The position numbers and the translations under genes are program-made. The notes under the pieces are model-generated. The model did not search any database, had not been told where the DNA came from, and saw only the letters and a program-made list of their open reading frames with translations. A DNA stretch of 17,479 nucleotides from an uncultured archaeon (GTDB lineage: Archaea > Asgardarchaeota > Thorarchaeia > Thorarchaeales > Thorarchaeaceae): contig CAZPWM010000066.1 in NCBI GenBank assembly GCA_964590575.1, positions 1-17,479 of the forward strand, given 5' to 3'. Positions 7,621 to 14,733 of the stretch are shown one piece after another. How positions within the stretch are numbered: the first letter of the stretch is position 1; each line of letters starts with the position of its first letter.

Positions 7621-9060
7621 CTACTCCTTCTTCTGGTCGCGATGAACTAATGTTTGGCCATCGACAACCCAAGCGATACCTAACGATTGAAACTCTTCAG
7701 CCCATTTCATTACTATCGCTGGAGCTACCCCTAAAGATCTAGCTATCTCACGGATAGCCATTTCGCCATGTTCTTCAACCATCAAGAATGCCTTTGTCTT
7801 CTCAGTACTATCCATGAGATCAAGATAGCCTTCAAGGGTTTCTTGAGTATGTTCTAGTTTGGCTTTTGTTTCATTCAGATCGTTTGTTGCTCTCTCAAGA
7901 TTAGCTGAGGTTCGCTCAAATTCTGTCTTGAGTCGTTCAAGTTCTCGTGCCTTATCCCCAGACTCATAGGAACGTAGACGAGCTCGTATCTCTTCCATTT
8001 CAGTCAAGCGGTCAGCAGTCTTAGCCTTCTGGTCCTCTAGCTGTCTAACTTTAGTCTTCAAATCACCGAGCTCAATATCTTTCTTGGCGATTTCATCGGA
8101 ATACTCCTTACCTCTCTGTTCTGCTGTATTTGCTCGTGCTTCAGCTTCTGTGACTTTTTCTTGAAGAAGGTCACGTGATGCTTCCAGCGTCTTCACAGTA
8201 CCTCTTAATTCAGAGAGAACCTCCACATCGGTCTGAGGAGTGGCTTTCAGGGTCGCTAGTTCTTCCTCAATCTCTTCATTGATTACCTTAAGGGTTGCAT
8301 TATCTTTACGAAGAGTTTCAATCTCTGATTCTCTCGTAGAAACCTTCTGCTGGGAGATGCTTAGCTCTTGTGTGAGTTCCTCAATGCGTCTCTCAAGCAT
8401 CTTCATTTTATCAGCTATATCCTTTGGGACTTCGATCTTTGGTTTCATGCTGAGCTCTGATGATAGAAACTCTACTTCGGTTGTGGACCGCTGAGTGAAA
8501 TCATCAATGTTCGCTTTGAGGGTTGTTAGTTCTTCATAGGTTACTTTCATCGCATCTTTGAGACTTTCAGTTAAATCTCGTACTTTTTCGAGGATAGGTG
8601 TTGACATTCCTGATGTCAATGACTCTTCGACCTTATGGAACTCCTCATTAACTATAGGCCTCACATCGTTGTCGATATAGGTAGTCTGAAGATTTGTTTT
8701 TGCTGCACGTTTACTTCGAGTGACGATATCGCCTCTCATGCTCACTAGATTTCCTTTTAGCCCTACCAAGAATGATAGAACCACAGGTACAAGGTCTCTT
8801 TCAATACGATCTACCGAACCGTCAACAATCATGATATTACGTTCTAGAAGACCAATACTATCCTGTAACTTCTCAATGCTCTTATCTATCTCGATTCTTC
8901 GTCGTACCTGGTCAGCTGATTCGACTCTCATGACATCGCTCGACATACGACCAGAGTCGATGAGCTCCTGTCTCATCTCGTTGTCTACTCCGAGCTCGGT
9001 AAGAAGCTCATCCACGACGCCTTTATCCCCAGATGGTTTTTTGTCAGGATCTTTTGCCAT
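7621..9060 (-). CDS. Long coiled-coil protein with C-terminal winged helix-turn-helix
   Basis: Extensive heptad-like E/K/L-rich region (~aa 210-415). C-terminal TKAFLMVEEHGEMAIREIARSLGVAPAIVMKWAEEFQSLGIAWV fits a wHTH. No Walker A motif. Confidence 0.8.
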   Translation of the reverse strand: MAKDPDKKPSGDKGVVDELLTELGVDNEMRQELIDSGRMSSDVMRVESADQVRRRIEIDKSIEKLQDSIGLLERNIMIVDGSVDRIERDLVPVVLSFLVGLKGNLVSMRGDIVTRSKRAAKTNLQTTYIDNDVRPIVNEEFHKVEESLTSGMSTPILEKVRDLTESLKDAMKVTYEELTTLKANIDDFTQRSTTEVEFLSSELSMKPKIEVPKDIADKMKMLERRIEELTQELSISQQKVSTRESEIETLRKDNATLKVINEEIEEELATLKATPQTDVEVLSELRGTVKTLEASRDLLQEKVTEAEARANTAEQRGKEYSDEIAKKDIELGDLKTKVRQLEDQKAKTADRLTEMEEIRARLRSYESGDKARELERLKTEFERTSANLERATNDLNETKAKLEHTQETLEGYLDLMDSTEKTKAFLMVEEHGEMAIREIARSLGVAPAIVMKWAEEFQSLGIAWVVDGQTLVHRDQKKE

Positions 9061-9173: not shown

Positions 9174-10010
9174 ATGCGCCTTAAGATTGAGATGCAAGCG
9201 AATGTCCATAACCGTGGTTCTTCGAAATTGACACGAGGAATGATGGTTTGGCATCTTTTCACAGACATCGAAAACCAGTTTGTAGAGATGATTGATGTCT
9301 TCCCACCTGCTAGAGTCACAGAGAAAGCAGAGAAGAACATGGTTGCAGTGATCAAGATTCCAGAACTTAATCCAGGAGAAAGTTTCTCGCCTACTGTGGT
9401 CCTACGAATTGACACTATCACTAGGGACTGGTTAATGGAATCTCAGATATCAACTGAAGAGCATATTGCTAGGAATAGAGGAATTTACTGCTCCATGCAG
9501 AAATATTGGGAAATTGATGATCCACTTGTGCAGGAATTATCACAGAAGGTAGCAGAAAGAACTGGTGATGATGAGTCGTATGCAAGACTCGCATTTGAGA
9601 TGGTACGAGACAGCATGAAGCTTAAGACTCACCTTGACGAACGAATAGGAGCTGCAAGAGCTGTCAGGGAGAAGGAAGGAGACTGTGATGAACATGCAGA
9701 CCTTTTCATTGCATTACTTCGCGCTGTCAGAATTCCTGCTAGAAGAATTGTAGGTCATTACTATCGCGGAGGTCCTGAACCAGAACCTCATGCTTGGGCA
9801 GAGATGTTTCTTGAAAGAAATGGATGGATTCCAGTAGATCCAGCCCTTGGCAATTTTGGTACTATGTCAGAACACTACTTCTCTAGAATTCGAGAGGGTC
9901 TTGTATCTGAACGGCCCACCATTCACCTGAAATGGAGTGGCATTGCGACTGAAGCACCCACTGTTGAAGAAGAGGTAAGAATGGAAATCTTGAAGAATGG
10001 TCATGATTGA
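9174..10010 (+). CDS. Transglutaminase-like (putative cysteine protease) domain protein
   Basis: Catalytic triad motifs GDCDEHA, PHAWAE and GWIPVDP, plus LLRAVRIPAR. Start reassigned to ATG9174 because 9033 overlaps the divergent gene; GAGGAG at 9154-9159. Confidence 0.88.
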   Translation: MRLKIEMQANVHNRGSSKLTRGMMVWHLFTDIENQFVEMIDVFPPARVTEKAEKNMVAVIKIPELNPGESFSPTVVLRIDTITRDWLMESQISTEEHIARNRGIYCSMQKYWEIDDPLVQELSQKVAERTGDDESYARLAFEMVRDSMKLKTHLDERIGAARAVREKEGDCDEHADLFIALLRAVRIPARRIVGHYYRGGPEPEPHAWAEMFLERNGWIPVDPALGNFGTMSEHYFSRIREGLVSERPTIHLKWSGIATEAPTVEEEVRMEILKNGHD

Positions 10011-10753
10011 AAACCAGATATCTTACCCATTGTTTCAAGCTGTACAAACATTTCAGCGCCAAAATGCCAGCAAGAGTGAGTGTCAAAAATGCAGCACTTG
10101 ATGTTTGGTAATAGAGGCGCTTCAAAAGCAGTCCGAAGTGTGTTAGCAAGATGATGGGCCATCATTTCACCATAAGCTGAAACCTGAGGGATTGAGTCCA
10201 TGAAACGACTTTTTGTTCGTTCTAAGGGACCTGGTTTGTAGTCACAGATATGAATAGCTCCGTCAACATAGCGGATGAGGTCAACATGACCTGTCATCTT
10301 ATACCGTTCGGACCAAACGGGAACTTCTATCGCTATCGTTTGTGGATCGTTCAAGATGAACTCTTTTAGGATACTGTGGTCCGAAGAATAACTCAGATCG
10401 TTTCTAGACCGATGATAGTCTCGAAGCATACTAACCAAATCGTCATCAACATGAATGGTCAGAGCTCCTGTTCGTCTAAGCTTCTTTCGAAACCCGACCT
10501 TCTCAGATTTCGACATCTCTGAAAAGTGTAATCTTGAAGCTCGTGTGAAGAACGGGTCTAGGAATGGGTTTATTGGAACATTGCCACTTAGTATTGAATT
10601 CAGATGAGCCCAAAGGGATGCTAAATCACCTGCTTTATGTCCGAGGTTTTTGTGATGCGCTGTGTTCCACTGAAAGCCATAAGCTACCTTCCCGTGCTGA
10701 AAATCGCGTCGTAGGATGTCATTCTTTGCCGGAGGCATGTCCCTCGACAGCAA
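10001..10753 (-). CDS. PD-(D/E)XK nuclease, RecB/Cas4-like motif set
   Basis: IAIEVPV, TGHVDLI, ICDYKPG and PQVSAY (E, GxxD, DxK, QxxxY). Start is TTG10753 or ATG10738. Confidence 0.8.
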   Translation of the reverse strand: MLSRDMPPAKNDILRRDFQHGKVAYGFQWNTAHHKNLGHKAGDLASLWAHLNSILSGNVPINPFLDPFFTRASRLHFSEMSKSEKVGFRKKLRRTGALTIHVDDDLVSMLRDYHRSRNDLSYSSDHSILKEFILNDPQTIAIEVPVWSERYKMTGHVDLIRYVDGAIHICDYKPGPLERTKSRFMDSIPQVSAYGEMMAHHLANTLRTAFEAPLLPNIKCCIFDTHSCWHFGAEMFVQLETMGKISGFQS

Positions 10754-10789
10754 TGTCTGAGTCTAATCTTTTTAATCCATCGAACACCC

Positions 10790-10838
10790 AAAAAAAAGAG
10801 GATTGGGATTTGAGAGAAAATGAATCCTCTCAAACCCA
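10790..10838 (-). terminator. Hairpin followed by T8 tract, putative terminator of the 11187-10830 unit
   Basis: TGGGaTTTGAGAG (10804-10816) pairs with CTCTCAAACCCA (10827-10838); an alternative pairing is AGAGGATT/AATCCTCT. A8 at 10790-10797 is T8 on the minus strand. Confidence 0.6.
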
Positions 10839-11187
10839 TAATCTAAATCTATTACTTTTCCCGCTGGATTTCTTTGATAAGATGACCAGGATTAACACGA
10901 CCACAATCACTCCAGCTGCTATTAATGCCAATAATAGTGGGTCAAGTGGACCAGGTCCTGGGGGTCCTGCAAAGTTATCAAGTTCGAATGGTGCATCAGA
11001 GTATCCATTGCTGCGAGAGAGCCACCTGTAGTTGTGATCCAAGTGAAAGATCATTAACGCTCCGCAGAGGGATTGCACCGGATCCAGCCATAGGTGTCGC
11101 AGGTAGTACTAGAGAAACAAGAAACAATCCAAGTATCTACAGGACATGACTAAAGCTGTCAAAGACTATGACTCTCTGCTCGTTCAT
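10830..11187 (-). pseudogene. Remnant of a secreted, C-terminally membrane-anchored surface protein
   Basis: ATG11187 gives MNEQRVI, then an insert with in-frame TAG (11137-11139), then ILGLFLVSLVLPATPMAGSGA (signal-peptide-like); this frame ends at TGA 10996. A different frame carries SDAPFELDN, a Pro/Gly linker, a TM helix (LLLALIAAGVIVVVLILVIL) and a basic tail. Confidence 0.65.
11130..11174. repeat. 45-bp perfect inverted repeat, copy 1 (partner 13645-13689 inside tldD)
   Basis: caagtatctacaggacatgactaaagctgtcaaagactatgactc is the exact reverse complement of 13645-13689; mismatches occur immediately outside both ends. Confidence 0.97.
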
Positions 11188-11209
11188 AACTTGTATCTGA
11201 TATGCTTTT

Positions 11210-11226
11210 GCTTATATTAGCTAATA
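11210..11226 (-). promoter_or_regulatory. Putative TATA box (AATATAAG) for a leaderless transcript starting near ATG11187, overlapped by the palindrome TATTAGCTAATA
   Basis: The box lies about 24-31 nt upstream of ATG11187; perfect 12-bp palindrome at 11215-11226. Confidence 0.5.
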
Positions 11227-11235
11227 AAGAGATAT

Positions 11236-11277
11236 AGAAAAGGTAGGAACTCAGCTGATAATCAGATTTCAGCTGAG
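11236..11277 (-). terminator. Putative terminator of tldD-tldE
   Basis: Stem CTCAGCTGA (11250-11258)/TCAGCTGAG (11269-11277) about 15 nt after the tldE stop, followed on the minus strand by pyrimidine-rich TTCCTACCTTTTCT. Confidence 0.55.
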
Positions 11278-11291
11278 CATGAAGATGAAGT

Positions 11292-12659
11292 CTACTCTTT
11301 TGCAATCAGTGAAACATTCTTGAAGACGATCTCTGGACCAATGACACCTTGAAGATAGTGAGGTGTTTTCGCGATTTCATCCACATTTTCAAGGAGATCA
11401 TACATGTTACCAGCAATCATGAGACCATGTACTGCCCCTACCATCTTTCCATTCTCAATCAAGATGGCTGGATTGCCGACGATACTAAAGTCACCAGATT
11501 CTGGATTGGAGCTGTGTGCACCTTGCACACCAAGGATATAATAGCCATACTCGATTCCAGAGATTATTTCATCGATTTCGCGATTGCCAGGCTCCACAAC
11601 GACGGTACTAGGTGATATGTCCACAAGTCCTTGCCGCATGTTCCGTTTTGCATTCCCTGTGCTCTTGACACCCATCTTATTGGCCCAATATGTGTCCCAA
11701 AGGAATGATCGAAGAACACCATTCTCGATGATTGGAGTGCGTTGCCTAGGGACCCCTTCATCATCAGCCGAGGAGCTTGCAACACCTCTTGGATGAAGTC
11801 CATCATCAGCAATCGTAAACTTCTCAGATGCGATCTTTTCTCCCAATTTATCTCCAATCTTTGATTTACCCCTAGCAACATTGTCACCTCTGATAGACTG
11901 AACCAAAGTGAAATTCATCAACTGACTGTAGGCATTTGGATGCATAATCATGGTATGCTTTCCAGTTTTGCCTTTAGCGGATTTCTTGCAGATTCTAATA
12001 TTGGTTGCAACATCATCCACAGTCCTTGTTATATCGACGTCCATTCCACGCGCTATATCATATGAGAAGATCATTGGAGTCATTCCTGTTTCAGTCGGCG
12101 CAACTCCACCAAGGGCAACAAAGGCAAAAGTTCCTTTGTCAGAGTGGCTCACTCCATTGCTGTTAGCATATGCTGAACTGAATGCTATGGCACCTGAACC
12201 ACCGAATCCCGGAATGAGTCCTGGTTCGGCTTCAGTCACTAGGCCAAGTGTTTTTCCAGTAATGCCAACAATCTCTCCTGCATCAGCATTTACAACAGAG
12301 TCCTGCCAGAGTCCTTCAATGGTTGGATAACTCTCTGGACGTGTTGGAAATCCAGACCAATCGTCATCATCAGTTGTCGCTTTTGCTGCTGAAATTGCCA
12401 ACTCTACGGCCTCTTTGACAGCATCCTTGGAAGGGATGTTTGTGAAAGCGGATCCCATTTTCTTGCCAATGTATAGACGGATAGCAATCTGAGCCAAGTC
12501 CTTTTTACTCACCTGACTAATCTGGCCCATCTCAATGTCGGATTCAGATTCCAACTCGGATTGCGCTAAGGCTTCAATGTGATCAGCACCCTTACTCTTT
12601 CCAGTTTCCACTATGAATTCGCAGAGATCAAGTAATGTCTGTTCCTCAATCATTCTCAT
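11292..12659 (-). CDS. tldE: TldE/PmbA family non-catalytic subunit
   Basis: DDEGVP...IIENGVLRSFL...STGNA and NPESGDFS motifs; no HExxH; directly downstream of tldD with SD GGAG. Confidence 0.88.
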   Translation of the reverse strand: MRMIEEQTLLDLCEFIVETGKSKGADHIEALAQSELESESDIEMGQISQVSKKDLAQIAIRLYIGKKMGSAFTNIPSKDAVKEAVELAISAAKATTDDDDWSGFPTRPESYPTIEGLWQDSVVNADAGEIVGITGKTLGLVTEAEPGLIPGFGGSGAIAFSSAYANSNGVSHSDKGTFAFVALGGVAPTETGMTPMIFSYDIARGMDVDITRTVDDVATNIRICKKSAKGKTGKHTMIMHPNAYSQLMNFTLVQSIRGDNVARGKSKIGDKLGEKIASEKFTIADDGLHPRGVASSSADDEGVPRQRTPIIENGVLRSFLWDTYWANKMGVKSTGNAKRNMRQGLVDISPSTVVVEPGNREIDEIISGIEYGYYILGVQGAHSSNPESGDFSIVGNPAILIENGKMVGAVHGLMIAGNMYDLLENVDEIAKTPHYLQGVIGPEIVFKNVSLIAKE

Positions 12660-12665
12660 ACGCTC

Positions 12666-14054
12666 CTAATTGGCTCCTCCAAATGTTATGCCACCCTCCA
12701 AAAACCGAATATTCGGTCCTCCAGCCGCAACAAATGCTTCCTGACCCTTCCCACATCTTCCTAGTTCGAATGGAAAGTCTTCATTGGCAACTCCTTCAAT
12801 CTTGAAGAGAGAGTCGGTAGCGATACCAGAGATTGAGAGGTCCGTCACTGGCTTGCCAAGTTCACCATTAACAATCTCATAAGCCTCCTGAATGCCAACT
12901 TGGAAAGAGGCATTCATCTGAGCTTGCCCGCCCCGGAAGTCGGCACAGTAGTAACCAAACTCAATGCCCTTGAACATCTCATCAGGGTTATAATCACCAC
13001 GCTCAAATAGCGTGTTTCGCATCCTGATAATTGGTGGATAGAGATAGCTCTCGGCTCTCGCATTCCCAGTCACTCGTTGTCCGATCTTTGCTGCATATTC
13101 TCGGTTAGTGAGAAGCTCAGTCAAAACGGAATCTTTGATAATCTCAACACGTGATGCACGTGATCCTTCATCGTCATACTTTGAAGTTCCAAGATTGCCT
13201 TCATCAACACCATTGTCAGTCATATTGACACCCTCAGAAGCTACAACCTCTCCCACCTTACCATTGAATGAACTCTGAACCGTGAGGTCCGCCTCCGATA
13301 GATGCCCCAAAGCTTCATGAGCAAGGACACCAATCACTCTGGGCCCAAGTACACACGGGAATGATCCGCCCTTTGCTGGTACACCTTCAAGTTGAAGCTT
13401 GACTCGTTTCGCAGCCTCCAGTCCAATAGTTTCAGGGGTTGCGACCTCATCCATGAATTCCCATCCACGGCTAGTAGATGCATCCTCGTAACGAGCAGCA
13501 CTAAGGCGGACACCTTCCTTTCCCGTGACCCAGGGATAGCTCCATACAAGAACGACATCTGTTTGAATCCTAGACCCATCAGATGTCATTAGATATTTCT
13601 TTCCTGAAGCGGTTCGTATCTTCCCTGTGACAGCAGTTATTCGTGAGTCATAGTCTTTGACAGCTTTAGTCATGTCCTGTAGATACTTGATTTTCTCCTC
13701 AATTGGGACATGACGAGGATCTCTCCTTACATCTAGAGTGACGACATCTTCAAACGCCTTGGTTTCTGCTAGTGTAATTGGCTCTCGTCGTGTAGGCGCT
13801 GCTGCTTTTGCCATCGAATAGGCATCCTTGACAGCATTGCTAAGCCCATCAAGATTCCCCGTGCTCACAAATCCCCATGCGCCATCAACTAATACTCTGA
13901 TAGCGACCCCTTGCTCTATTCGCTGAGTCAGCGCGTTTATCCGGCCATCATCCATTTGTATATACTCGATGAAACCAGATTCACCTCTGAGCTCTACGTA
14001 GCTGGCTCCGAGTTCGCGGCCTGTTTCCACAGCTTTCTCCAACATGTCAAACAA
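12666..14054 (-). CDS. tldD: TldD family metalloprotease, catalytic subunit
   Basis: GVAIRVLVDGAWGF, HEALGHLSEAD (HExxGH), YDDEG, TGNARA...PIIRMRNT and C-terminal GRCGKGQ. Start is TTG14054 or ATG14045. Confidence 0.92.
   Translation of the reverse strand: MFDMLEKAVETGRELGASYVELRGESGFIEYIQMDDGRINALTQRIEQGVAIRVLVDGAWGFVSTGNLDGLSNAVKDAYSMAKAAAPTRREPITLAETKAFEDVVTLDVRRDPRHVPIEEKIKYLQDMTKAVKDYDSRITAVTGKIRTASGKKYLMTSDGSRIQTDVVLVWSYPWVTGKEGVRLSAARYEDASTSRGWEFMDEVATPETIGLEAAKRVKLQLEGVPAKGGSFPCVLGPRVIGVLAHEALGHLSEADLTVQSSFNGKVGEVVASEGVNMTDNGVDEGNLGTSKYDDEGSRASRVEIIKDSVLTELLTNREYAAKIGQRVTGNARAESYLYPPIIRMRNTLFERGDYNPDEMFKGIEFGYYCADFRGGQAQMNASFQVGIQEAYEIVNGELGKPVTDLSISGIATDSLFKIEGVANEDFPFELGRCGKGQEAFVAAGGPNIRFLEGGITFGGAN
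13645..13689. repeat. 45-bp perfect inverted repeat, copy 2 (tldD codons KYLQDMTKAVKDYD)
   Basis: gagtcatagtctttgacagctttagtcatgtcctgtagatacttg, the reverse complement of 11130-11174. Confidence 0.97.
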
Positions 14055-14436
14055 ATTAACATCAACTCGTCAGTATGGCGTGATTCTTTAGATTTGAGGA
14101 TATCTAATAAGGTTATGATATTCGGCAGTGGAAACCACAAGAGCGAATACTGAAGCTGAATCCTTATGGGTGGGATTGCGTGTTGAGTCAGAGAGGAGTA
14201 CCACCAGAGTTTGCTCACCTAACAAATGATGATATTTTTCTTTGTCAAACTAATTTCGCGTTCCTGTCTGCATCGCATCTTAGAATCGGTGGCGCTCCCC
14301 ACAAACAAAGCGGCTCTCCTTCACACGCAGACCATTCTTCCCAAAAAATCACTTCCGAGTATTTGAGTCTTCACAGAAAACATCCATCACGAATCTTTTT
14401 AATCTGAATTCAGTTCCACTAACTTGGTGCCATGAG

Positions 14437-14733
14437 ATGACCTATGCGTTCATTGTATTCTACCGGTTTCAGTTGATGACTCCTGAACAAGCTGGAAAAG
14501 CAAAAGAGTTCTGGAAAGAGTTTGGGAAAGGAAGCTGGCCTGAGCATCTTAAAATCATAGGCGACTACAAATACGCGTGGGGCTCTGATTGGAGTGGATT
14601 CCTATTGCTTGAAACTGAGGACCCACAGACATTCTTCGAATTCTGGCCGATTTTTCGCGATAAAACCAGATGGTATATCGATAATACGCGAACAATCATT
14701 GCAGTCAAGAGGGATGCAAAAGACTGGATGTAG
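14437..14733 (+). CDS. Small dimeric alpha-beta barrel (ferredoxin-like; GYD/DUF3303-like) protein
   Basis: 98 aa with a beta-alpha-beta-beta-alpha-beta pattern (YAFIVFYRF / LKIIGDY / WSGFLLLETED / TRTIIAV). The exact family is uncertain. Confidence 0.65.
   Translation: MTYAFIVFYRFQLMTPEQAGKAKEFWKEFGKGSWPEHLKIIGDYKYAWGSDWSGFLLLETEDPQTFFEFWPIFRDKTRWYIDNTRTIIAVKRDAKDWM

What the first reader, a model, noticed from the sequence alone, without database searches (positions are those of the whole stretch)
11130..13689. 45-bp piece of tldD copied in inverted orientation into a neighbouring gene, with a microhomology-templated insertion signature
Seen: 11130-11174 is a 45/45 reverse-complement match to tldD 13645-13689. 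Deleting 33 bp (11134-11166) removes the in-frame TAG and restores ATG AAC GAG CAG AGA GTC ATA CTT GGA TTG..., i.e. MNEQRVILGLFLVSLVLPATPMAGSGA, a clean signal-peptide-like N-terminus. This restored allele shares GAGTCATA (8 nt) with one end of the tldD segment and ATACTTG (7 nt) with the other; the two overlap by ATA, which is duplicated around a 30-bp core. Established: short insertions copied from nearby inverted sequence and bounded by microhomologies typify synthesis-dependent microhomology-mediated end joining or replication template switching. Inference: this is a recent, unmutated scar of such a process in a probable Asgard archaeon. A library or assembly chimera remains possible.
Basis: partly seen in the sequence, partly recalled or inferred. 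Interest (0 to 1): 0.8.

Follow-up and report, generated by a model that had tools for sequence, protein, structure and literature searches.

The report
Inverted tldD patch in a dead gene's leader
A 45-base stretch of the tldD protease gene really is copied backwards 2.5 kb away in this Asgard archaeon, but it overwrote the start region of an already truncated gene remnant, so it is a mutational scar of a known kind.

Summary
The 45/45 inverted match (11130-11174 vs 13645-13689) is real. It is the only internal exact inverted repeat of 26 nt or more within 10 kb in the 3.4-Mb genome. It is not an artefact. A contig from a second sample spans both junctions without a difference. A 2278-nt contig from another study, about 1.8% diverged, also carries it at the same length, with two substitutions inside the copy.

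tldD is the donor, because the segment encodes conserved TldD residues. The recipient is not an intact gene. It is the leader and first codons of a truncated remnant of the roughly 1050-aa secreted-protein gene that follows pmbA in relatives. That remnant is fused, out of frame, to the last 48 codons of a different surface-protein gene. All of this lies at the edge of a 3.2-kb tldD-pmbA cassette that sits here only in this species.

Relatives carry a GAGGG box, the true ATG and six codons at this spot. About 31 nt of tldD antisense therefore replaced about 32 native nt, between a 7-8-nt and a 4-7-nt microhomology.

Best reading: a long-range switch-and-return template-switch (or break-repair) scar, fixed in the population and probably neutral. 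Interest is low to moderate.

The parts
11130..11174 (-). Derived copy. On the gene (minus) strand it reads as the antisense of tldD codons 122-137. The middle roughly 30 nt are new sequence. The ends (GAGTCAT(A) and (ATA)CTTG on the minus strand) coincide with native leader and signal-peptide sequence.
   Evidence: 45/45 match. Flanks are colinear with the L031, L032 and G041 leaders. Spanned by X3 record 10 with 0 differences, and by X4 record 17 with two substitutions, at 11149 and 11155.
13645..13689 (-). Source segment inside tldD, encoding K Y L Q D M T K A V K D Y D S (residues 123-137).
   Evidence: The residues align with TldD of 7 relatives at the same position, so the segment is native to tldD.
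12666..14054 (-). tldD, intact, 462 aa.
   Evidence: Pfam PF01523, PF19290 and PF19289. 89% identical to the TldD of metagenome locus L031.
11292..12659 (-). pmbA (tldE), intact, 455 aa.
   Evidence: Pfam PF19289 and PF01523. 80% identical to L031.
11249..11278 (-). 10-bp hairpin followed by a T-rich run just after the pmbA stop. It looks like a terminator.
   Evidence: Fold. A similar hairpin is visible at the same place in the L031 sequence (by eye).
11197..11210 (-). Conserved upstream element CAAAAGCATATCAG of the secreted-protein gene. It is still intact here and may be a promoter or a binding site.
   Evidence: Found 47-72 nt after the pmbA stop in 18 of 28 related loci that hold the pmbA 3' end. 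The 11-nt core occurs 4 times in the genome, twice at this gene family.
10996..11136 (-). N-terminal remnant (I L G L F L V S L V L P A T P ... then a stop) of the roughly 1050-aa secreted-protein gene that follows pmbA in relatives. It lacks its own start codon.
   Evidence: Aligns to residues 7-47 of the L031 1074-aa protein with BLOSUM62 local score 94. DNA alignment.
10830..11010 (-). C-terminal remnant (... S D A P F E L D N ... membrane anchor ... K K) of a different surface-protein gene, in another frame.
   Evidence: Aligns to the last 48 residues of the 900-aa protein that precedes the PD-(D/E)XK-like gene in G002, score 166. 70% DNA identity starting at window 11010.
11003..11010 (-). 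Fusion junction between the two remnants. CAATGG is shared by both parents.
   Evidence: The G002-like DNA homology starts at CAATGGAT. The L031 sequence reads ...AGCAATTGG... at the matching place (by eye).
11010..14220 (-). The 3.2-kb cassette, colinear with L031: the first codons of the upstream 663-678-aa gene, tldD, pmbA, then the leader and 47 codons of the secreted-protein gene. It sits between the DUF3303 and PD-(D/E)XK-like genes, which are adjacent in other species of the genus.
   Evidence: L031 homology runs from 13993 to 14220. Gene orders. The native tldD-pmbA site on contig C1 is empty.

Best explanation
This is a fixed mutational scar. While the leader of the gene downstream of pmbA was being replicated or repaired, the growing DNA end left its template at GAGTCAT(A) and paired with the same 7-8 bases on the opposite strand inside tldD, 2.5 kb away. 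It copied about 30 nt there, which is why the copy is inverted. It then returned to the original template at (ATA)CTTG. The new 31 nt overwrote about 32 native nt that held the ribosome-binding GAGGG box, the start codon and the first six codons (M L/F K R Y L). The recipient is a dead stub: 47 codons of a roughly 1050-aa secreted-protein gene, fused out of frame to the tail of another gene. It lies at the right-hand edge of a 3.2-kb tldD-pmbA cassette that entered this locus by illegitimate recombination. The patch is about 120 nt from that fusion junction, which itself shows a CAATGG microhomology, so both may stem from one multi-switch event. That link is inferred, at roughly even odds. Shown here: the repeat, the donor direction, the native allele in relatives, the pseudogene context and the presence in other samples. 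Inferred: the molecular pathway, neutrality, and the link to cassette integration.
For: The repeat is 45/45 and unique. Donor direction: the tldD segment encodes residues conserved in 7 of 7 aligned relatives. Native recipient allele: L031 (TldD 89%, PmbA 80% identical) reads GAGTCCAT-CTAGAGGGTATACCA-ATG-CTC-AAA-CGA-TAT-CTT-ATC-CTT-GGA-TTA..., and its flanks match the window on both sides of the patch. G041 and L032 show the same layout. A 428-nt X4 contig (record 18) matches 11168-11211 with 3 differences and then continues with a GAGGG box, ATG and CTC AAG AGA TAT. Among related leaders, 16 of 18 show GAGGG followed by ATG, by eye, and 0 of 18 show tldD-like sequence there. Control: in 16 relatives that hold both tldD and at least 150 nt after pmbA, the longest exact inverted match between the two is 8-10 nt, against 45 here. 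Microhomology: the chance that identity runs on by at least 7 nt is 4^-7, and by at least 4 nt is 4^-4. Real DNA: X3 record 10 covers 11079-11425 with 0 differences. X4 record 17 covers 10584-12817 with 41 differences and one 2-bp gap at 10787, so the patch has the same length there. Pseudogene and cassette context.
Against: The direct ancestor is not available, so the native allele is inferred from relatives that differ from each other. The eighth base of the left microhomology and the ATA of the right one are not the same in all of them (L031 has GAGTCCAT and ATCCTTG). The 2.47-kb donor distance is far longer than the tens of bases typical of short switch-and-return events, so a break-repair route is equally possible. 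No second case exists in this genome, so the process cannot be characterised statistically. I could not see whether the X4 strain's tldD carries changes complementary to 11149 and 11155, because 9 rows were hidden. Neutral drift of the copy is therefore assumed, not shown. Only contigs were laid, not raw reads, so minority alleles without the patch cannot be excluded.
Confidence: 0.72

Rival explanations
1. It is a functional antisense element. The conserved upstream element of the dead gene still fires and produces an RNA whose first roughly 45 nt pair perfectly with tldD mRNA. Alternatively, read-through of tldD-pmbA gives an intramolecular 45-bp duplex. Either way tldD expression or stability would be tuned.
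For: The upstream element is intact at 11197-11210, at the same distance from the leader as in relatives. The copy is antisense to tldD on the strand that this element would transcribe. The patch is kept at full length in a strain 1.8% diverged.
Against: X4 carries two substitutions within 45 nt, against 1.8% over the whole contig, which gives no sign of constraint. The feature is found in one species only: 0 of 16 relatives have more than 10 nt of such complementarity. There is no Rfam match and the local fold is unremarkable, z -0.48. A terminator-like hairpin separates pmbA from the patch. No RNA data could be laid.
Confidence: 0.1
2. A free tldD-derived DNA fragment was captured at a double-strand break in the leader by end joining, rather than copied by a polymerase that switched templates.
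For: The outcome is the same: a short inverted filler with loss of a similar length of native sequence. The site lies about 120 nt from an illegitimate-recombination junction, so breaks did occur here.
Against: Identity with the donor runs 7-8 nt and 4-7 nt into native sequence on both sides. Primed synthesis predicts this. Blunt capture does not, although annealing of resected ends could mimic it.
Confidence: 0.12
3. It is an assembly, amplification or library chimera.
For: The genome is a short-read metagenome bin with k=55 contig-end overlaps, and local depth is only about 4-6.
Against: Separate contig sets, made with a different assembler (Logan contigs), from a second sample (X3, 0 differences across both junctions) and from another study and habitat label (X4, a 2278-nt contig with its own strain differences) carry it. 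A de Bruijn path cannot enter and leave a 31-nt filler through 7-8-nt overlaps.
Confidence: 0.02
4. The two arms are the ends of an invertible segment (phase variation) or a gene-conversion pair kept identical by recombination.
For: They are perfect 45-bp inverted repeats 2470 nt apart.
Against: Inversion would cut tldD in two. No joints or strand changes were seen in the 4 runs laid. No recombinase domain was found among the 7 neighbouring proteins scanned. The arms differ in X4 unless its tldD changed too.
Confidence: 0.03

Closest known systems
Switch-and-return template-switch mutations (Ripley's quasipalindrome model; the four-point model of Loytynoja and Goldman 2017, PMC5453318)
   Same: [quoted passage not shown] It replaces a similar length of the original sequence and creates a new perfect inverted repeat. 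The result would look like a cluster of substitutions plus an indel if aligned naively (passages read).
   Different: The donor is 2.47 kb away rather than within tens of bases. There was no pre-existing imperfect inverted repeat beyond the two terminal microhomologies. The host is an Asgard archaeon. The paper states that it does not model long-range switches.
MMBIR / FoSTeS complex breakpoints with templated insertions (names seen; the mechanisms themselves are recalled)
   Same: Microhomology of 4-8 nt at each switch, an inverted template a few kb away, and proximity to another microhomology junction (CAATGG, about 120 nt away) at the edge of a relocated 3.2-kb segment.
   Different: That the junctions arose in one event is not shown. 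These models were built on bacterial stress amplification and human copy-number variants, not archaea.
Filler DNA and templated insertions of alternative end joining (polymerase-theta type; recalled, with titles only seen)
   Same: A short templated filler between microhomologies at a repaired break.
   Different: Such fillers usually come from within about 100 bp of the break. Whether this archaeon has an equivalent polymerase was not examined.

Membership tests
Switch-and-return template-switch mutation | A fragment identical to the reverse complement of nearby sequence | tested here: met
   45/45 match, 2470 nt apart.
Switch-and-return template-switch mutation | The donor copy is native at its own site | tested here: met
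   It encodes TldD residues 123-137, aligned with 7 of 7 relatives.
Switch-and-return template-switch mutation | The recipient's flanks are colinear with alleles lacking the fragment, and the native stretch is replaced | tested here: met
   L031, L032, G041 and X4 record 18 have a GAGGG box, ATG and six codons at that place. 0 of 18 leaders carry the patch.
Switch-and-return template-switch mutation | Short range: donor within the same few tens of bases | tested here: not met
   The distance is 2470 nt. The event fits the logic of the model but not its usual scale.
Ripley-type quasipalindrome correction | A pre-existing imperfect inverted repeat that is made perfect | tested here: not met
   Relatives' leaders share only 8-10 nt at most with their own tldD antisense (16 loci). 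Only the terminal microhomologies pre-existed.
MMBIR/FoSTeS complex junction | Several microhomology junctions created in one event | not testable with these tools
   A second junction (CAATGG) lies about 120 nt away, but its timing relative to the patch is unknown.
Assembly or amplification chimera | The junctions are absent from independent data | tested here: not met
   X3 record 10 and X4 record 17 span both junctions.
Invertible DNA segment | Both orientations present, with a recombinase nearby | tested here: not met
   No joints in the 4 runs laid, which were contigs only. No recombinase domain in the 7 neighbouring proteins scanned.
Antisense regulatory RNA | Transcribed, with pairing conserved or co-varying | tested here: inconclusive
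   No RNA was laid. X4 has 2 substitutions in the copy, and the matching tldD positions 13664 and 13670 were not visible.

The most novel reading that the evidence does not exclude
Template switching created a regulatory RNA from nothing. The patch placed 45 nt of perfect tldD antisense directly behind the still-intact, family-conserved upstream element of a dead gene. If so, the orphan promoter now makes an antisense RNA against the neighbouring, recently acquired tldD-pmbA protease operon, and that is why the patch is kept in diverged strains.
Probability: 0.1. Interest if true: 0.6.

Novelty: new member of a known kind. Interest (0 to 1): 0.3.

Why it matters
This is a cleanly resolved natural example of a kilobase-range, microhomology-bounded templated replacement in an Asgard (Thorarchaeota-like) archaeon. 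The donor, the recipient, the native allele and the population spread are all documented. My two literature searches returned no listed title or abstract start (15 shown of 37 and of 32) that describes natural templated insertions in archaea. It also shows how a metagenome bin can record a gene-cassette relocation together with its junction scars. It remains a single event of a known mutational class in a pseudogene, so its general importance is limited unless the antisense reading proves true.

Tried and rejected
(1) I looked for more cases in this genome. The exact inverted-repeat scan (at least 16 nt, within 10 kb) found none. The 55-nt pair is made of the two ends of contig C122. One of the two 21-nt pairs lies at a tRNA-Gly gene, and the other has the same T-arm-like sequence by eye. 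The 25-nt pair on C22 (23747 / 27218) is unexplained, and aragorn found no tRNA there.

(2) I looked for another copy of the leader (10750-11300) elsewhere in the genome. Only the tldD arm matched.

(3) I tried to see whether the X4 strain's tldD co-varies with the copy. The first exact look-up of the proteins failed because the start codon differed. With the inner ATG it worked, but the cluster held only TldD at 90-91% identity, reading MTQAV and MTKAV at the site, and not the X4 fragment. A search with the first 175 residues found nothing closer than 76%. The question stays open.

(4) A scan of species-representative genomes for a 21-nt core of the patch gave 0 matches.

The three Thorarchaeota hits I inspected (of 80 listed) were unrelated sequence.

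(6) Rfam gave no match, and the local RNA fold was unremarkable.

(7) In run X5 the contig stops at 11183, so it says nothing about the patch.

(8) A reading as a DGR template/variable pair or as a CRISPR spacer was dropped. The arms are identical rather than adenine-mutated, and no flanking repeats appear.
Full report
**Observation.** The window is one whole contig (C66) of a 194-contig, 3.40-Mb metagenome bin. Positions 11130-11174 and 13645-13689 are perfectly complementary over 45 nt. The next-best inverted pair in the window is 29 nt at 72%. No third copy exists in the genome, allowing up to 3 mismatches. I scanned all contigs for exact inverted repeats of at least 16 nt within 10 kb. Apart from this pair, the scan gave a 55-nt pair formed by the two ends of contig C122 (contig ends in this assembly overlap by 55 nt), a 25-nt pair on C22, two 21-nt pairs, and short palindromes. 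One 21-nt pair lies at a tRNA-Gly gene. The event is therefore far beyond chance and is unique in this genome.

**It is real DNA.** I laid Logan contigs of four runs on 10300-14200.
- In X3, a different sample of the same habitat label and year, a 347-nt contig covers 11079-11425 with no difference.
- In X4, from another study with a marine-sediment label, a 2278-nt contig covers 10584-12817. It has 41 substitutions and a single 2-bp gap at 10787. The patch is therefore present at full length in a strain about 1.8% diverged.
- That contig differs from the window inside the copy at 11149 (A>G) and 11155 (G>A).
- In X1, a possible source sample, the contigs break inside the repeat.
- No joints were reported in any run.

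These are contigs, not reads, so rare alleles could be missed.

**Donor and recipient.** The open frame 12666-14054 (minus strand) has the three TldD/PmbA domains, and 11292-12659 (minus strand) is PmbA. The tldD arm encodes K Y L Q D M T K A V K D Y D S, residues 123-137. This aligns with Q Y M Q D M T K A I R D F D S in the closest relative and with similar residues in six others. tldD is therefore the donor.

**What the recipient is.** In 7 of 7 genus relatives whose tldD-pmbA region I fetched, pmbA is followed by a 1052-1096-aa protein with a signal-peptide-like start (for example M Y R R Y L I L ...) and then a 407-435-aa protein (426 aa in 5 of 7) that starts M K I V V V G Y G P G G .... 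A metagenome contig, L031, has TldD 89% and PmbA 80% identical to the window's and shows the same order. Its sequence after pmbA runs as follows:
- a hairpin;
- the element GCAAAAGCATATCAG;
- a leader containing ...GCAAAGAGTCCAT;
- CTAGAGGGTATACCA;
- ATG CTC AAA CGA TAT CTT ATC CTT GGA TTA TTC CTT GTT TCT CTA GTA ...

The window matches this on both sides, at ...GCAGAGAGTCATA and at ATA CTT GGA TTG TTT CTT GTT TCT CTA GTA. In between it has tldD antisense instead.

L032 and G041 show the same native layout. So does a 428-nt X4 contig (record 18). It matches 11168-11211 with three differences and then continues with a GAGGG box, ATG, CTC AAG AGA TAT.

I examined 28 related loci that hold the pmbA 3' end.
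- 18 carry the A[AT]GCATAT element.
- By eye, 16 of those 18 show GAGGG followed by ATG.
- Some of these loci are the same organisms seen twice, so they are not independent.

As a control, in 16 relatives holding both tldD and at least 150 nt after pmbA, the longest exact inverted match between the two is 8-10 nt.

**Size of the change.** About 31 nt of tldD antisense replaced about 32-33 native nt: the ribosome-binding box, the start codon and six codons. Identity with the donor continues for 7-8 nt on one side (GAGTCAT, plus an A that is not present in all relatives). On the other side it continues for 4-7 nt (CTTG for certain; L031 has ATC where the window has ATA). This is a replacement, not a 33-bp insertion. 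The frame M N E Q R V I L G L ... is not an ancestral protein.

**The recipient was already a wreck, or became one in the same event.**
- After the patch, the frame I L G L F L V S L V L P A T P ... aligns with residues 7-47 of the L031 protein and then stops at 10996.
- From 11010 downward, in another frame, the DNA is 70% identical to the 3' end of a different gene. That gene is the 900-aa surface protein that precedes the PD-(D/E)XK-like gene in G002.
- The joint lies at CAATGG, which both parents share.

On the other side, L031-like sequence runs from tldD up to about 14220 and includes the first codons of the gene upstream of tldD. In five other species of the genus, the DUF3303 gene (window 14437-14733) and the PD-(D/E)XK-like gene (window 10001-10753) are direct neighbours. 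In this genome the usual tldD-pmbA site on contig C1 is empty: the 554-aa gene and an intact 1049-aa secreted-protein gene, with its own leader, are about 200 nt apart.

A 3.2-kb tldD-pmbA cassette with stubs of both flanking genes therefore sits in a new place. Its leader resembles L031, G041 and X4 record 18, not this genome's own C1 leader. Its TldD is only 66-75% identical to the genus relatives' TldD, while neighbouring genes are 82-87% identical to those of G002. This suggests acquisition from another lineage. That is an inference.

**Mechanism.** The inverted orientation, the nearby donor, the similar length of lost and gained sequence, and the microhomology at both ends fit a switch-and-return template switch. 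In that model a nascent end pairs with the complementary strand nearby, copies a short tract and returns. Ripley proposed it for bacteria, and the four-point model generalised it (PMC5453318: abstract and passages read). The 2.47-kb range exceeds that model's usual scale. There was also no pre-existing quasipalindrome. The event therefore sits closer to the microhomology-mediated replicative or break-repair models named in the same paper. With a second microhomology junction about 120 nt away, one multi-switch event is plausible but unproven. Capture of a free fragment by end joining cannot be excluded on sequence alone.

**Function.** The patch removes translation signals from a stub that could at most encode a 47-residue peptide, so it is probably neutral.

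One bolder reading remains. The family-conserved upstream element at 11197-11210 is intact. Its 11-nt core occurs only 4 times in the genome, twice at this gene family. The patch is antisense to tldD on the strand this element would drive, so an antisense RNA could arise.

Several results speak against that reading:
- X4 has two substitutions in 45 nt.
- The feature is restricted to one species.
- There is no Rfam match.
- The local fold is unremarkable, z -0.48.
- A terminator-like hairpin follows pmbA.

I also could not see the X4 tldD positions that pair with 11149 and 11155.

**Taxon.** Homologues of the TldD fragment are named Candidatus Thorarchaeota by their sources. Earlier notes of this scan call the genome Thorarchaeota.

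**Literature.** Two full-text searches listed work on template switching in humans, apes, E. coli and organelles, and on templated insertions in end joining. None of the 15 listed titles or abstract starts in either search (of 37 and 32 papers that hold the terms) describes natural templated insertions in archaea. I read only PMC5453318 (abstract and passages). Other papers were seen as listings only. No supplements were consulted.

**Verdict.** The mechanism class is supported, but the proposed ancestral allele, the 'intact gene' and the 'recent' claim are not. This is a well-documented single scar of a known mutational kind, in an interesting cassette-relocation context.

Noticed in passing
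window 10784-14279; genome contig C1 54170-54372: tldD-pmbA has moved. Relatives keep it between a 554-aa (or 678-aa) gene and a roughly 1050-aa secreted-protein gene. In this genome that site is empty, and a divergent cassette (TldD 89% identical to a metagenome contig, 66-75% to genus relatives) sits between the DUF3303 and PD-(D/E)XK-like genes. This looks like replacement by a copy from another lineage.
   Followed up: partly
window 11197-11210 (minus strand); L024-L048: The element (C)AAAAGCATATCAG is conserved 47-72 nt after the pmbA stop and about 45-60 nt before the start codon of the secreted-protein gene in 18 of 28 related loci. Its 11-nt core occurs only 4 times in this genome. It is a gene-specific promoter or binding-site candidate.
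   Followed up: partly
window 14180-14230: A stub of the first codons of the gene that lies upstream of tldD in L031 (... G V P P E F ...) marks the left edge of the cassette.
   Followed up: partly
run X4, record 18, matching window 11168-11211: A 428-nt contig shares only these 44 nt (3 differences) and otherwise differs. It reads like the intact leader and start of the secreted-protein gene of a closely related organism in the same sample, and is the closest uninserted allele seen.
   Followed up: partly
genome contig C22 23747-23771 and 27218-27242: A 25-nt exact inverted repeat 3.4 kb apart. One copy lies at the 3' end of a 1034-aa open frame. aragorn found no tRNA there. It remains unexplained.
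   Followed up: partly
genome contig C163 1-2556: A homologue (42% identical) of the G002 900-aa surface protein runs off the contig end exactly before the ...F E L D N... anchor tail that survives as a remnant at window 10830-11010. The two share no DNA of 24 nt or more.
   Followed up: partly
window 10787: The X4 strain lacks 2 bp here, in the spacer upstream of the PD-(D/E)XK-like gene.
   Followed up: no
genome contig ends (e.g. C122 1-55 / 8190-8244): Many contig ends overlap other contig ends by 54-55 nt. C122 has inverted 55-nt termini. These are assembly-graph (k=55) effects, not biology.
   Followed up: no
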